Shown piece by piece: positions 12,901 through 15,900 of a stretch of DNA of 34,239 nucleotides. The DNA comes from a virus (taxonomy: Duplodnaviria; Heunggongvirae; Uroviricota; Caudoviricetes), in IMG/VR virus record IMGVR_UViG_2663762996_000010, positions 1-34,239 of that record; one strand, given 5' to 3'. Every line of letters begins with the position of its first letter. Position 1 is the first letter of the stretch. A program made the position numbers.

Positions 12901-15900
12901 ACGAGTTCAACAACCTGCCCTTTAATTTTTTCCCGCTCTTCTTGTGTAAAAACTTTTGCCACAAGCCCTCCTGAAAATTACCTCATGACCAGAAATTAAC
13001 ACTTACCCCCTGAAGCCCGGCGGAATTTCGTTATCCGGTTCAGAAATATGATTCACACAACGCTGGTTGTTCGTGCCGCTTACCGGGAGCAACCAGGGGT
13101 TCTCAAAATTCCGGTCCGGTCCAAAAAACGTCGTCGCTCGCTGAACAAATTCCGTTCCCGTTTTCCCGGTAGCCGCCAAGTATCTTGCGTAACGCCTCAC
13201 GCCATCCAGCATGGCCTCTGGTGGCACCCCCTCGCGTAATCTGGCCTTCCAGGCACTGAAAGCGGATTTCTTCGGGTTTGCTCCGGCACGCAACGGGTAC
13301 TCCCGCCAGACCTGTTCGAACGCATCCGGATAATCCACTCGTCCCACAGACAGCCCGGTGTTTTCCGGGACTACCCGATCGGCTTTCCGCTGAATGGCGG
13401 AATCGGCTTCAGGCTGCTGCAGTTGGTGTGATTGCTCCGGCCTTGGGGTCATCACCTGCTGCACAGCGCCCGAATCGGCTTTCAGCGCATACGCTGAATC
13501 GGCTTCCGGTGTCGTGCCTGCTGGCTGACCAGGATTGACGGTCTGAACATCCCCTGCCTGGTTCGTGGCGTTTTTTACGCCATGGACCATAGTGTTTTGA
13601 TCTTCTTGATCTGTATCTTTATCTGTATCTTTATCTGTCGTGACTCGTCGTGACATGTGCGTGACATTTCGTGACGCGCCGTGACAATCGCCATTTTGTT
13701 CCCGCTTTCTTTCCCTCTCTCGCTGCGCCCTCTTGCGCTCTGCAGGAGATTTTGCGGTTTGCGAAATATTGCCGTTGTCCTCTTTAAGCACCTGGCGTTT
13801 TTCCCATCCAGTGATTAAATCACCATCAAGTACCCGCCCCTGCATCGTCTGCAAAATTGAATCAATTACCTCTTCTGTCACGTCGAGCGCACTTGCCAAA
13901 TCTTCTGTCGTGACATCAATGTGACCTCGCGTGACATTTCGTGACGCGCTCACCAGGAGGTGGATATACACTGCCATCACTGTTGCAATTGGCTGCCCTG
14001 ACACCCTGGCAATTGTTCGCCACTTAGGGTCATTTGGCATGTCATGCCATAATCTGAGCCAGGCGTTAGCCATACTCACCTCTTCTGATACCGAATCTTT
14101 TTACTCACGAGTTGCCGGAAGCGATTCGATATGGCTATTGTCAGTCAATGTACTGCCACAGCATTTCCTGCCGGGCCACCACGATTCATCTGATTGAAAC
14201 CGGCGATTGCCACTGCGACAAAATCATCAGCGTCTCTCACCAGTCGCTCCCGCGTCTCCACCAGCTCCCGAAAATAAGCTGAACTGTGGCTGCGCATTCT
14301 GGCCACCAGCAAAGGTGGCATTGCCTTTTCGATCGCTGGTAACAACGCCTGAATTTTTTCAACTGCATCAGGGGTGTCTTTCTCTACCCAGCGGAAAATT
14401 TTCTGGGTATTACGGGCCAGGGCTTCCGGATGGCTGTCGTCATACAGTTCCGGGAACGTCATTCCCAGCTCGAAATACGCTTTGGTAATTTTCGCAGCCG
14501 GTACTTTTTCGCCGTCCGGATGCGCCCAGACATTCATCGCCATGCGGATGTGTTCATGCTTGATTTTCATGAATCATTCTTTCCTTCGTTTGAGGTGCTA
14601 TCCTGCTTCTTGTAAAGTTCTGGGTTGTATTTCAATTCACTGTTAGTAATTTCATCCAGTTCCATTGCGCGAAGTTTGGGAATAACTGCTTTCCACCGCA
14701 CAACAGCCACATGTGAAATTCCAAGAGCCTCAGCTACTAGTCGCTTTTTTTTGAAATAGCGCAGAACATCATCTTTGAACATAAAACTCTCCTGTTATTT
14801 CGAGCAGAAGGGTAACAATAGTTACATAACAATGTCAACCATAGCAACATCACTTGGTAGTAACATTGGTTACATGAAAAACACTATCAGCGAACGTATT
14901 CGGAATCGTCGAAAAGACGTTGGATTAACCCAACAGCAGGTTGCGAAAGCAATCGGCATATCTCGTGTATCCGTAACAAAATGGGAAAATGGCTCTTCAA
15001 AACCTGACGGTGAGAATTTGTATCTACTGTCAAAATTGCTTTCCAAATCTCCTGAATGGATTCTTTATGGAAAGGACGGTCACGATAAAGCCGATGATCT
15101 GCGTCTGAATCAGTACCCTTACATTAGTGACAACATCGCCCGGTTGCCCGTTTTAACGTGGGAACAGGCTGGTTATTGGGATATGAGTTGTCCAGTAACC
15201 GAGATTCCTGGTATTAAGAATTGGGTTGATGTCATGACAAAAACCGCTGAAAACTCTTTTTTATTGCATGTTGAGGGAGATGCGATGACAAACTCTAACG
15301 GCCTCCCAACCATCCCCAACGGATCTACCGTGCTGATCACACCATGCTCAAGTAACATTAGAGAACTGGTGGGAAAAATAATCTTAATCCAATTGGAAGG
15401 AACGCCAAACGTAACACTAAAAAAAGTTGCGATTGACGGACCAAACATCTATCTGTTGTCACTGAATCCGCTTTACAAACCCATCGAACTGAATGGTGGT
15501 TACACCATTAAAGGTAAAGTTTCACAAATACATCAATACTTAGACTGAGTCAGAACCCGCATTCATTGCGGGTTTTTTATGCCCTCAAATGTACCTTTTG
15601 CAACATTGTATTGACTCGAAAGGTAACTCTTGTTACCTTAACAACATACCAACCCACCCCGCCCCACAGAATGCAGGGCAATACTTCGAGTTACCTGGCA
15701 GTGGTCAGGGGTTAAATAGCCAGCCCGAGGCGTAAGAACATGACGGCAGGGTTCAACTTTAATAACTATGCAGCAGGTTTTTGTTCCGCTACCCCGGCGT
15801 TAAGGGGAAATGAGGTCAGCATGGATACTATCGATCTTGGCAACAGCGAATCTCTGGTATGTGGCGTGTTCCCCAACCAGGACGGTACGTTCACCGCGAT

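What the first reader, a model, noticed from the sequence alone, without database searches (positions are those of the whole stretch)
14783..15637. Three GTAAC-N4-GTTAC operator palindromes define the immunity switch; the repressor may be translated leaderless
Two 14-bp palindromes lie in the 91-bp cro/cI divergent region and a third lies upstream of the ydfA-dicF-dicB operon. The second palindrome ends one base before the repressor ATG, leaving no room for a Shine-Dalgarno sequence, as with lambda cI from PRM. The switch therefore combines a lambda-like CI/S24 repressor with Qin-like dicB cargo under repressor control.
Basis: seen in the sequence. Interest (0 to 1): 0.4.

Follow-up and report, generated by a model that had tools for sequence, protein, structure and literature searches.

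The report
P22/Qin-type prophage operators, leaderless repressor
The three palindromes are real, evolutionarily conserved repressor-binding sites of an ordinary P22/Qin-type prophage immunity switch whose repressor is very probably made from an almost leaderless mRNA; the one unusual point is that the repressor has lost the serine it needs to cut itself after DNA damage.

Summary
Observation confirmed. GTAAC-N4-GTTAC occurs exactly three times in 34 kb (0.03 expected), at the stated places. In 26 related loci (repressor down to 42% identical, many genera, including the phage ZF40) the layout is kept: one site over the -10 of the cro-type promoter, one 48 bp away that abuts the repressor ATG (gap 0 in 26 of 27 loci), and one to three sites at the promoter after the repressor's terminator. 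Two weaker sites (14835-14848, 15591-15604) sit at conserved positions, so the switch probably has five sites.

The true start codon is ATG 14874, not RefSeq's 14832.

Leaderless translation is not shown here but is well supported by homology. The region is homologous to Qin dicA-dicC and P22 immC. Both have mapped repressor transcripts starting 3-4 nt before the AUG, from a -10 in the same register of the ATG-proximal operator (here TAACAT, 14861-14866).

The region is not a lambda/Qin hybrid. It is a new immunity specificity of a known kind, present in about 700 of 5426 complete E. coli genomes.

The surprising point is that the S24 catalytic serine is alanine in 682 of those genomes, which predicts a repressor that cannot cleave itself.

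The parts
14145..14570 (-). ydaT-family gene (CII analogue position)
   Evidence: Pfam YdaT_toxin, 7.4e-10. YdaT activates a PRE-type promoter in CP-933P (PMC8630535).
14567..14782 (-). cro-like gene (71 aa) with its own Shine-Dalgarno
   Evidence: Pfam P22_Cro, 7.5e-15. 38% identical to Qin DicC. AGGAG at -11.
14809..14838 (-). Predicted lytic promoter Pcro: -35 TTGACA (14838-14833), 18-nt spacer, extended -10 TGtTACCCT (-10 hexamer 14814-14809)
   Evidence: Read from the sequence. The same layout (TTGCTA-17-TGtTACCTT) is kept in distant loci. It falls below the threshold of the consensus scan. The -35 explains why the ATG at 14832 is conserved.
14812..14825 (.). Operator OR1, GTAACAATAGTTAC, over the spacer and -10 of Pcro
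   Evidence: Exact palindrome. Top weight-matrix hit at 23.9 bits. Present at -62 from the ATG in 27/27 loci.
14835..14848 (.). Candidate weak middle operator OR2, TCAACCATAGCAAC, over the -35 of Pcro
   Evidence: Supported by position only: 23 bp from OR1 in all 27 loci, with 2-5 mismatches (4 here). Its right half is a good half-site in most relatives.
14860..14873 (.). Operator OR3, GTAACATTGGTTAC, abutting the repressor ATG
   Evidence: Exact palindrome. Gap to the ATG is 0 nt in 26/27 loci. Start-to-start spacing to OR1 is 48 bp in 27/27. A perfect palindrome in 24/27.
14861..14866 (+). Candidate -10 (TAACAT) of the repressor maintenance promoter; predicted start at A14872-A14874
   Evidence: TAACNT in 27/27 loci, while OR1 has TAACA[A/G]. 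It is in the same register as Qin TAGCAT (mapped start 3 nt before the AUG) and P22 TAAGAT (start 4 nt before the AUG).
14874..15548 (+). Repressor gene (224 aa): HTH_3 N-terminal domain plus S24 C-terminal domain
   Evidence: Pfam HTH_3 3.5e-17 and Peptidase_S24 2.3e-16. Distant homologues and P22 C2 start at the equivalent MK.... The 14-codon upstream extension called by RefSeq evolves as non-coding DNA.
15282..15284 (+). GCG codon (Ala137) at the position of the S24 catalytic serine
   Evidence: Aligns with Ser149 of lambda CI. All distant homologues have G[DE]SM. 682 E. coli genomes carry GCG and 8 carry TCG.
15552..15578 (+). Intrinsic terminator of the repressor gene
   Evidence: 10-bp stem plus U run, -15.1 kcal/mol, z = -4.66. 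Equivalent hairpin plus T run in related loci.
15591..15604 (.). Candidate weak operator OL2, GTACCTTTTGCAAC
   Evidence: Fourth-best weight-matrix hit in the window at 15.0 bits, with the next at 6.0. It occupies the position of the second OL site of related loci, 32-35 bp upstream of OL1 and upstream of the -35.
15611..15639 (+). Predicted early-left promoter PL (dicBp equivalent): -35 TTGACT (15611-15616), 17-nt spacer, extended -10 TGtTACCTT (15634-15639); start near 15646
   Evidence: Read from the sequence. The same layout (TTGAC[A/C]-17-TACATT) is found in distant loci. Sequence shared with heteroimmune phages begins within a few nt of the predicted start.
15623..15636 (.). Operator OL1, GTAACTCTTGTTAC, in the spacer and -10 of PL
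   Evidence: Exact palindrome. 23.8 bits. An equivalent site is present in most of the related loci examined.
15646..15820 (+). PL leader, conserved across prophages of different immunity types
   Evidence: Found in 2766 E. coli records and in phages with RacR-, DicA- and other repressors. No Rfam match. No stable fold (z = -0.03). Function unknown.
15821..17108 (+). ydfA-ydfB-ydfC-dicF-dicB early-left operon under PL/OL
   Evidence: tblastn and blastn against K-12 Qin. DicF RF00039, 76.7 bits. Pfam DUF1391 and DicB.

Best explanation
This is the immunity region of a Rac/Qin-type lambdoid prophage, built on the P22 immC / Qin dicA-dicC plan but with its own operator specificity (half-site GTAAC). 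A dimeric HTH repressor (224 aa, starting at ATG 14874) binds 14-bp 5-N4-5 inverted repeats. OR1 (14812-14825) covers the spacer and -10 of the cro-type promoter. OL1 (15623-15636) covers the spacer and -10 of the early-left promoter, so both lytic promoters are shut by steric occlusion. This keeps ydfABC-dicF-dicB silent. Weaker sites over the Pcro -35 (OR2, 14835-14848) and upstream of the PL -35 (OL2, 15591-15604) probably add cooperative binding. OR3 (14860-14873) contains the -10 (TAACAT) of the repressor's own maintenance promoter. Transcription is predicted to start 0-2 nt before the AUG, so the message has no ribosome-binding leader and is translated as a leaderless mRNA. OR3 occupancy, by excess repressor or by the Cro-like protein, turns the repressor gene off. 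What is shown: the sites, their non-random occurrence, their conserved positions, the start codon, the absence of a Shine-Dalgarno sequence, and the homologies. What is inferred: binding, promoter positions, the transcription start and the order in which sites fill.
For: There are three exact palindromes against 0.03 expected. In 27 loci spanning 42-95% repressor identity, OR1-OR3 spacing is 48 bp in 27/27, the OR3-ATG gap is 0 in 26/27, and OR3 is TAACNT at positions 2-7 in 27/27. OL sites follow the repressor terminator and straddle a TTGAC[A/C] -35. These are the only matches with at most one mismatch in nearly every 4-6 kb locus. A matrix from distant loci recovers the window sites as the top four hits. 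On the start codon: homologues begin MK(T/N).., as does P22 C2. The RefSeq extension has 5 differences in 42 nt, all non-synonymous, against 26 in 675 nt with 13 synonymous codon changes in the gene, and its ATG is the complement of the Pcro -35. There is no SD. On homology: 57% identity to the DicA N-terminal domain, and cro-like 38% to DicC. Qin Oa (TTAGCattaGCTAA) ends 2 nt before the dicA ATG, and the dicA start was mapped 3 nt upstream of the ATG by dRNA-seq and RLM-RT-PCR (PMC4681348). The P22 record annotates the operators starting at the base next to the c2 ATG and the RM transcript 5' end 4 nt upstream. The heteroimmune phage mEp390 has GTAGGattgCCTAC abutting its ATG together with a changed recognition helix. 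DicA represses dicBp and dicC through such operators (PMC3441716 and PMC10448788).
Against: No binding, transcript-end or protein N-terminus data exist for this element. No paper in the searchable library contains these operator sequences. The consensus promoter scan found nothing in 14400-16000, and the proposed maintenance promoter has no recognisable -35. In Qin, DicA bound only the cro-proximal operator in an in vivo assay, not Om or Oa (PMC3441716), so occupancy of OR3 by the repressor rather than by Cro is an assumption. OR2 in this window has 4 mismatches and does not score with the matrix. A YdaT-activated PRE-type promoter could also supply a long-leader transcript.
Confidence: 0.72

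Rival explanations
1. The repressor starts at ATG 14832, as in RefSeq (238 aa). Palindrome 2 would then lie inside the coding sequence and the leaderless argument would fall.
For: PGAP calls the gene from the equivalent ATG in EC6 and CB9615. Several database proteins are 238-240 aa. The ATG is conserved in the close clade.
Against: Homologues of 215-223 aa from many genera and P22 C2 align from MK.. at 14874. The extensions differ in sequence and length except where they translate the operator. Between the window and CB9615 the 14 codons carry 5 nt changes, none synonymous. The ATG is the reverse complement of the Pcro -35 TTGACA, which explains its conservation. It has no SD either.
Confidence: 0.05
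2. The repressor is translated mainly from a leadered mRNA made at an upstream promoter. This could be a YdaT-activated PRE inside cro-ydaT or a promoter between OR1 and OR3. Initiation would be SD-independent, or would use a purine-rich stretch brought close to the AUG by the OR3 hairpin.
For: A ydaT-family gene is present, and YdaT activates PRE in CP-933P (PMC8630535). P22 has an annotated PRE. About half of the distant loci have AAGGA-like stretches just upstream of OR3. As RNA, OR3 can form a 5-bp hairpin of -3.9 kcal/mol.
Against: The purine-rich stretch is absent from this window (CACTTGGTA). The hairpin is no more stable than in shuffled sequence (z = -1.5). The OR2-OR3 spacer is not conserved. 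Mapped maintenance transcripts of the homologous dicA and c2 genes start 3-4 nt from the AUG. Such a transcript would most likely add to the short one rather than replace it, as in lambda.
Confidence: 0.2
3. The palindromes are primarily sites for the Cro-like protein or a host factor, or are promoter elements that merely look palindromic, and the S24-type repressor recognises something else.
For: GTTAC overlaps the extended -10 (TGtTACCtT) of both lytic promoters, so part of the conservation is promoter constraint. DicA failed to bind two of the three Qin operators in vivo.
Against: The distal half-sites (GTAAC) lie outside the -10 and are equally conserved. OL2-type sites upstream of the -35 have no promoter role. 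The half-site changes with the recognition helix in mEp390 (GTAGG with NRVTVTG, against GTAAC with SRVSVTK) and in DicA (TTAG[T/C]). Cro and repressor sharing the same operators is the rule in lambda, P22 and CP-933P.
Confidence: 0.05

Closest known systems
Salmonella phage P22 immC (c2 - OR/PRM/PR - cro; OL/PL)
   Same: The HTH domain is closest to P22 C2 among solved structures (1.4e-12) and the Cro-like protein is in the Pfam P22_Cro family. Operators have a 5-N4-5 core. OR3 abuts the repressor ATG. The PRM -10 sits at core positions 2-7, and the RM transcript starts 4 nt before the AUG. OL sites flank a TTGACC -35 at PL.
   Different: The half-site is GTAAC rather than TTAAG, so the element is heteroimmune. 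There is no gene-24/N-type antiterminator between PL and the first genes. The middle operator is much weaker. The catalytic Ser of the S24 domain is replaced by Ala.
E. coli K-12 Qin prophage dicC-dicA-dicBp (DicA/DicC control of ydfABC-dicF-dicB)
   Same: The repressor N-terminal domain is 57% identical and Cro 38%. The gene order is the same, with near-identical ydfA, ydfB, ydfC and dicF. Oc lies over the dicC -10 and Oa lies next to the dicA ATG. The dicA mRNA has a 3-nt leader (PMC4681348). DicA represses dicBp (PMC10448788).
   Different: DicA (135 aa) has no S24 domain. Its operator half-site is TTAG[T/C]. The Qin PL leader differs except for the last ~60 nt before ydfA. DicA is released by the antirepressor Rem. 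Here OR3 is a perfect copy of the OR1 half-sites.
Phage lambda cI - OR1/2/3 - cro with leaderless cI from PRM
   Same: Divergent repressor and cro genes, a tripartite OR with ~23-25 bp centre spacing, the same operators at PL, an HTH plus S24 repressor (E 2.2e-13 to 3bdn), and a repressor message without a leader.
   Different: Lambda has 17-bp operators of a different sequence. OR3 ends 10 nt before the AUG, and OR2 is centred at about -42 from the PRM start (from my own knowledge of the lambda sequence, not a tool result). Here the whole set lies about one helical turn closer: OR3 centre at -7.5 and OR2 at -32.5. A lambda-style contact from OR2 to sigma is therefore unlikely, and any activation would come from OR1 at about -55, as proposed for DicA at Oc.
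CP-933P PaaR2 / YdaS / YdaT switch of E. coli O157:H7
   Same: A lambdoid prophage with a YdaS/Cro-like protein and a YdaT (CII analogue). The paaR2 mRNA is leaderless by 5'-RACE and N-terminal sequencing. Operators lie in a 97-bp divergent region and at a PL-type promoter (PMC8630535).
   Different: PaaR2 is unrelated in sequence, has no S24 domain, and uses 18-bp GTTTAGTAA-type repeats.

Membership tests
P22 immC / Qin dicA-dicC type lambdoid immunity region | Divergently transcribed HTH repressor and Cro-type genes separated by a short (<100 bp) control region | tested here: met
   91-bp region at 14783-14873. HTH_3 repressor and P22_Cro protein.
P22 immC / Qin dicA-dicC type lambdoid immunity region | Repressor DNA-binding domain and Cro homologous to C2/DicA and Cro/DicC | tested here: met
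   57% identity to DicA residues 7-71. E 1.4e-12 to the P22 C2 N-terminal domain. 38% to DicC.
P22 immC / Qin dicA-dicC type lambdoid immunity region | Repeated 5-N4-5 inverted-repeat operators overlapping the lytic promoter and abutting the repressor ATG, repeated at PL | tested here: met
   The same geometry is seen in Qin, P22 and mEp390.
P22 immC / Qin dicA-dicC type lambdoid immunity region | Repressor and Cro bind these operators and repress PR/PL | not testable with these tools
   Requires EMSA, footprinting or reporter assays. No published data were found for these sequences.
Leaderless (or <5-nt leader) mRNAs of prophage repressors | Transcript 5' end at or within a few nt of the start codon | not testable with these tools
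   Inferred from the homologous dicA (3-nt leader) and P22 c2 (4 nt). No transcript data exist for this element.
Leaderless (or <5-nt leader) mRNAs of prophage repressors | AUG start with no Shine-Dalgarno sequence upstream | tested here: met
   ATG at 14874. At most 3 nt of anti-SD complementarity in -20..-1, against AGGAG for cro.
Leaderless (or <5-nt leader) mRNAs of prophage repressors | -10-like hexamer placed 6-8 nt upstream of the AUG | tested here: met
   TAACAT at 14861-14866, ending 7 nt before A14874. TAACNT in 27/27 loci. The -35 is poor, and the consensus scan did not call it.
Self-cleaving S24 repressors (LexA / lambda CI / P22 C2) | Peptidase_S24 C-terminal domain | tested here: met
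   PF00717, 2.3e-16, residues 92-216.
Self-cleaving S24 repressors (LexA / lambda CI / P22 C2) | Ala-Gly cleavage site in the linker | tested here: met
   EQAGYW aligns with lambda CI VQAGMF.
Self-cleaving S24 repressors (LexA / lambda CI / P22 C2) | Catalytic serine nucleophile (G-D/E-S-M) | tested here: not met
   GDAM: Ala137 (GCG, 15282-15284) aligns with lambda CI Ser149.
Self-cleaving S24 repressors (LexA / lambda CI / P22 C2) | Catalytic lysine | tested here: met
   TLKKV aligns with lambda CI TFKKL.
Qin-type dicBF (early-left) operon | ydfA-ydfB-ydfC-dicF-dicB-ydfD in this order downstream of the repressor gene | tested here: met
   96/93/94/100/61/48% identity; DicF 76.7 bits; DicB 3.7e-38. 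An IS1 copy is inserted just downstream of ydfD.

The most novel reading that the evidence does not exclude
The switch is a naturally SOS-blind, domesticated version of a P22/Qin-type switch. The S24 nucleophile Ser is Ala in 682 of about 690 E. coli genomes that carry this immunity type. The Ser/Ala state has changed at least three times within the clade (GCG/TCG and GCA/TCA pairs), while the rest of the C-terminal domain, the Ala-Gly site and the Lys are kept. If so, selection has repeatedly switched self-cleavage off. The leaderless, self-limiting repressor would then hold the dicF-dicB cell-division and phage-exclusion operon silent whatever the DNA damage, with release only through an antirepressor or stochastic switching.
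Probability: 0.4. Interest if true: 0.55.

Novelty: new member of a known kind. Interest (0 to 1): 0.3.

Why it matters
The result gives a sequence-level map of the control region (five sites, three promoters, one terminator) for an immunity type carried by about one in eight complete E. coli genomes and by phages and prophages of many Enterobacterales. This immunity type governs expression of DicF and DicB. It also corrects a systematic RefSeq start-codon error: 14 spurious N-terminal residues are in fact the translation of operator DNA. It adds comparative support for the rule that lambdoid prophage repressors are made from leaderless messages. None of this changes current understanding. The loss of the catalytic serine in almost all E. 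coli copies is the one feature that could matter biologically, because it predicts that these prophages and their dicBF operon do not respond to the SOS signal in the classical way.

Tried and rejected
- **Promoter scan.** The consensus promoter/terminator scan of 14400-16000 found no promoter and missed the repressor terminator. Promoters were therefore read by eye and tested by conservation, and the terminator was confirmed by folding.
- **Start codon.** The upstream ATG at 14832 was considered as the start and rejected.
- **Window OR2.** It does not score with the matrix, so it is kept only as a positional candidate.
- **Extra sites.** The only other match with one mismatch in the window (4724) is consistent with chance. 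With up to two mismatches there are 18 matches against 10.7 expected.
- **Literature.** Full-text search for six operator strings found nothing. Searches for ZF40 repressor work and for natural Ser-to-Ala repressors found nothing relevant.
- **PL leader.** There is no Rfam family for it in the window or in distant loci, and no sequence similarity to the HK022 putL region. A covariance model of the structured leader of distant loci hits ZF40 (92.9 bits) but not this window, even with filters off. The window leader alone folds no better than shuffled sequence.
- **Longer ydfA.** Reading ydfA from ATG 15740 was dropped because the frame closes after 12 codons in related phages.
- **LexA box.** No CTGT-N8-ACAG box occurs anywhere in the window, so no LexA-controlled antirepressor could be proposed.
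Full report
**1. The observation**

The pattern GTAACNNNNGTTAC occurs exactly three times in the 34,239-bp window, at 14812-14825, 14860-14873 and 15623-15636. Shuffles give 0.03 matches on average and never three. Allowing two mismatches adds only scattered matches close to the chance number, 18 against 10.7.

The first two palindromes lie in the 91-bp gap (14783-14873) between two genes. One is a minus-strand 71-aa P22_Cro-family gene (14567-14782). The other is a plus-strand gene for an HTH_3 plus Peptidase_S24 protein.

The second palindrome ends at 14873, the base before the ATG at 14874.

The third lies 75 nt beyond the repressor stop codon. It follows a strong intrinsic terminator (15552-15578, -15.1 kcal/mol, z = -4.66). 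It is 185 nt ahead of ydfA.

The downstream genes are ydfA, ydfB, ydfC, dicF, dicB and ydfD. Identity to K-12 Qin is 96, 93, 94, 100, 61 and 48%.

The description is therefore accurate.

**2. Which start codon**

RefSeq/PGAP starts the repressor at the in-frame ATG 14832, giving 238 aa. That would put palindrome 2 inside the gene. Three lines of evidence reject this start.

- Forty-odd homologues of 215-223 aa from Yersinia, Kosakonia, Citrobacter, Klebsiella, Edwardsiella, Hamiltonella and others begin MK(T/N).., aligned with 14874. P22 C2 begins one residue earlier.
- The longer database calls have unrelated extensions, except for '..NIGY', which is simply the translation of AACATTGGTTAC.
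- Between the window and O55:H7 CB9615 the 14 extra codons carry 5 nt changes, none synonymous. The 225-codon gene carries 26 nt changes with 13 synonymous codon changes.

The ATG at 14832 is conserved because TGTCAA (14833-14838) is the complement of the -35 TTGACA of the cro promoter. The start is 14874. It has no Shine-Dalgarno sequence, while cro has AGGAG.

**3. Are the palindromes operators?**

I collected related loci from several sources:
- 20 from one genome per species;
- four closer relatives;
- CB9615;
- phage ZF40.

Repressor identity to the window ranges from 95% down to 42%.

All 27 loci have a site 62 nt and a site 14 nt upstream of the ATG. Start-to-start spacing is 48 bp in 27/27. 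The proximal site abuts the ATG with no gap in 26/27, and with a 3-nt gap in one locus, Celerinatantimonas.

Most of these loci also have one to three further sites 80-110 nt after the repressor stop. These follow a terminator and straddle a TTGAC[A/C] -35. In nearly every locus of 4-6 kb these are the only matches with at most one mismatch.

The spacers between sites are not conserved, so this is footprint-like conservation rather than general similarity.

A weight matrix built only from the distant loci ranks the window's three palindromes first, at 23.9, 23.8 and 18.8 bits. Next comes 15591-15604 (GTACCTTTTGCAAC, 15.0 bits), and the hit after that scores 6.0. The 15591-15604 site lies 32 bp upstream of the third palindrome, where relatives have their second OL site.

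A degenerate middle site (14835-14848, TCAACCATAGCAAC) lies 23 bp from the first palindrome in all loci. Its left half overlaps the Pcro -35, and its right half is a good half-site in most relatives but poor here.

Heteroimmune relatives keep the geometry but change the half-site together with the recognition helix:

| Element | Operator core | Recognition helix |
|---|---|---|
| mEp390 | GTAGG-N4-CCTAC | NRVTVTG |
| Qin DicA | TTAG[T/C]-N4-[A/G]CTAA | SHVSVSQ |
| P22 | TTAAG-N4-CTTAA | not retrieved |
| This group | GTAAC-N4-GTTAC | SRVSVTK |

Sources.

I conclude that these are operators and that there are probably five of them.

**4. Promoters**

On the minus strand the sequence reads TTGACA (14838-14833), then 18 nt, then TGtTACCCT (-10 hexamer at 14814-14809). 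This predicts a start about 20 nt before the cro ATG. OR1 lies in the spacer and -10.

On the plus strand it reads TTGACT (15611-15616), then 17 nt, then TGtTACCTT (-10 at 15634-15639). This predicts a start near 15646. OL1 lies in the spacer and -10.

Distant loci have the same arrangement: TTGCTA-17-TACCTT and TTGACC-17-TACATT.

Sequence shared with prophages and phages of other immunity types (RacR-, DicA- and other repressors) begins within a few nucleotides of the predicted PL start. This fits a module boundary at the promoter.

The simple consensus scan called none of these promoters, because their -10 hexamers match only 3 of 6 positions. They remain predictions.

**5. Leaderless translation**

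There is no direct evidence here, but the inference from homology is strong.

The repressor N-terminal domain is 57% identical to Qin DicA, and the Cro-like protein is 38% identical to DicC. In Qin the operator Oa (TTAGCATTAGCTAA) ends 2 nt before the dicA ATG.

Romero et al. mapped the dicA primary 5' end 3 nt before the ATG by differential RNA-seq and RLM-RT-PCR. They found that three of only five E. coli K-12 mRNAs with leaders under 10 nt encode prophage repressors: dicA, racR and ymfK (PMC4681348). That start is the last base of Oa. It lies 7 nt after TAGCAT, which occupies positions 2-7 of the operator core.

In the P22 record the operators are annotated from the base next to the c2 ATG. 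The '5' nt of RM transcript' is 4 nt upstream of that ATG, and TAAGAT again sits at core positions 2-7.

Here TAACAT occupies positions 2-7 of OR3 (14861-14866). The T at position 7, the -7 position of a -10 hexamer, is present in 27/27 loci at OR3 and in 0/27 at OR1.

By register the start should fall at 14872-14874, giving a leader of 0-2 nt. PaaR2 of CP-933P is a further experimentally proven leaderless repressor, in a prophage with YdaS/YdaT (PMC8630535).

A second, long-leader transcript from a YdaT-activated PRE is likely during establishment, as in lambda, P22 and CP-933P. It would not contradict a leaderless maintenance transcript.

**6. Mechanism**

Repressor at OR1 (with OR2) and at OL1 (with OL2) occludes the two lytic promoters. 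OR3 covers the -10 and the start of the repressor's own promoter. Excess repressor, or the Cro-like protein after a switch, therefore shuts that promoter off.

The operator set lies about one helical turn closer to the repressor gene than in lambda (comparison from my own knowledge of the lambda sequence). Relative to the AUG, the site centres are:
- OR3 at -7.5;
- OR2 at -32.5;
- OR1 at -55.5.

The maintenance promoter has no recognisable -35. Activation, if any, would therefore come from OR1, as was proposed for DicA at Oc (PMC3441716). These steps are inference.

**7. Comparison with known systems and novelty**

This is not a lambda/Qin hybrid. It is the full-length (S24-bearing) counterpart of the Qin dicA-dicC region, with the usual PL operon of Rac/Qin-type prophages, on the P22 immC plan.

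The operator sequence defines a distinct immunity specificity that I could not find in the literature. The kind of system is thoroughly known.

The region occurs in 702 of 5426 complete E. coli genomes, and related versions occur in many genera and in the viable phage ZF40.

**8. The unexpected feature**

The S24 domain reads GDAM where every distant homologue, lambda CI and LexA-type proteins have G(D/E)SM. Ala137 (GCG, 15282-15284) aligns with lambda CI Ser149. The Ala-Gly site and the catalytic Lys are retained.

Allele-specific 41-mers find the Ala codon in 682 genomes and the Ser codon in 8, all of the CB9615 haplotype.

Within the clade the state alternates: window Ala, CB9615 Ser, P0002 Ala, P0003 Ser, P0005 Ala, P0006 Ser. 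The codon pairs are GCG/TCG and GCA/TCA. On the neighbour-joining tree this needs at least three changes.

This predicts a repressor unable to cleave itself, and it deserves a test. No LexA box is present in the window. An Ash/Rha-type antirepressor-like ORF preceded by isrK and C4 RNAs is present twice but abuts IS1.

**9. Verdict**

This is a new member of a known kind and of modest interest. The catalytic-serine loss is the lead most worth following.

Noticed in passing
window 15282-15284 (repressor codon 137): The catalytic serine of the S24 domain is alanine (GDAM), while the Ala-Gly site and the Lys are kept. The Ala codon is in 682 complete E. coli genomes and the Ser codon in 8. The state alternates among close relatives (GCG/TCG, GCA/TCA), which needs at least 3 changes on the tree.
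   Followed up: partly
window 14832-14873; RefSeq WP_052974898.1 / WP_000104592.1 (L001, L002 4266-4307): RefSeq starts the repressor 14 codons too early. The extra residues are the translation of OR2-OR3 DNA, and the ATG is the complement of the Pcro -35. ZF40 gp10 has a similar over-long call that overlaps cro.
   Followed up: yes
window 16617-22836: Three IS1 copies (about 17472-18240, 19493-, 21358-) separate repeated segments. dicF is present three times (16694, 20356, 22240) and dicB-ydfD twice (16920, 22466). An isrK + C4 RNA + 217-aa Ash/Rha-type ORF unit is present twice (18777-19514, 20642-21379), and its 3' end overlaps the adjacent IS1 ORF. This looks like IS1-mediated rearrangement or amplification of the early-left operon, or an assembly artefact.
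   Followed up: partly
window 15646-15820: A C-rich leader (ACCAACCCACCCCGCCCCACAG...) begins at the predicted PL start. It is conserved in 2766 E. coli records and in phages with unrelated repressors (RacR-, DicA-type and others), including an Actinobacillus phage at 74% identity. It has no Rfam match and no stable fold. Its function is unknown; a rut-like or antitermination element is possible.
   Followed up: partly
related loci, e.g. L007 3276-3343, L029 (ZF40) 1945-2012; also SfV, SfII, ST64B, phiNP, mEp460: Immediately downstream of PL, the distant relatives carry a ~62-nt conserved RNA. It has a closing stem and two hairpins. One hairpin shows compensatory changes at three pairs in 6-7 of 13 sequences, and ZF40 adds a further variant (CUACC/GGUAG). 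It is not in Rfam, shows no similarity to HK022 putL, and is absent from this window. It occupies the same position as putL, so a cis-acting antiterminator is one idea.
   Followed up: partly
window 14860-14873 versus 14812-14825, across 27 loci: The ATG-proximal operator is better conserved (perfect in 24/27) than the cro-proximal one (perfect in 9/27), and its central 4 bp are nearly fixed (ATTG/ATTA). This is the opposite of the lambda pattern, where OR3 is the weak site for the repressor.
   Followed up: partly
window 10726-10900, 6839-7145, 26749-26835, 27827-27899, about 17300: A sok antitoxin RNA lies next to a hok-type locus. Three tRNA genes lie in the late region, and two more flank the integrase end (attachment-site candidates). 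There is an ambiguous base near 17300 (an X in one ORF translation).
   Followed up: no
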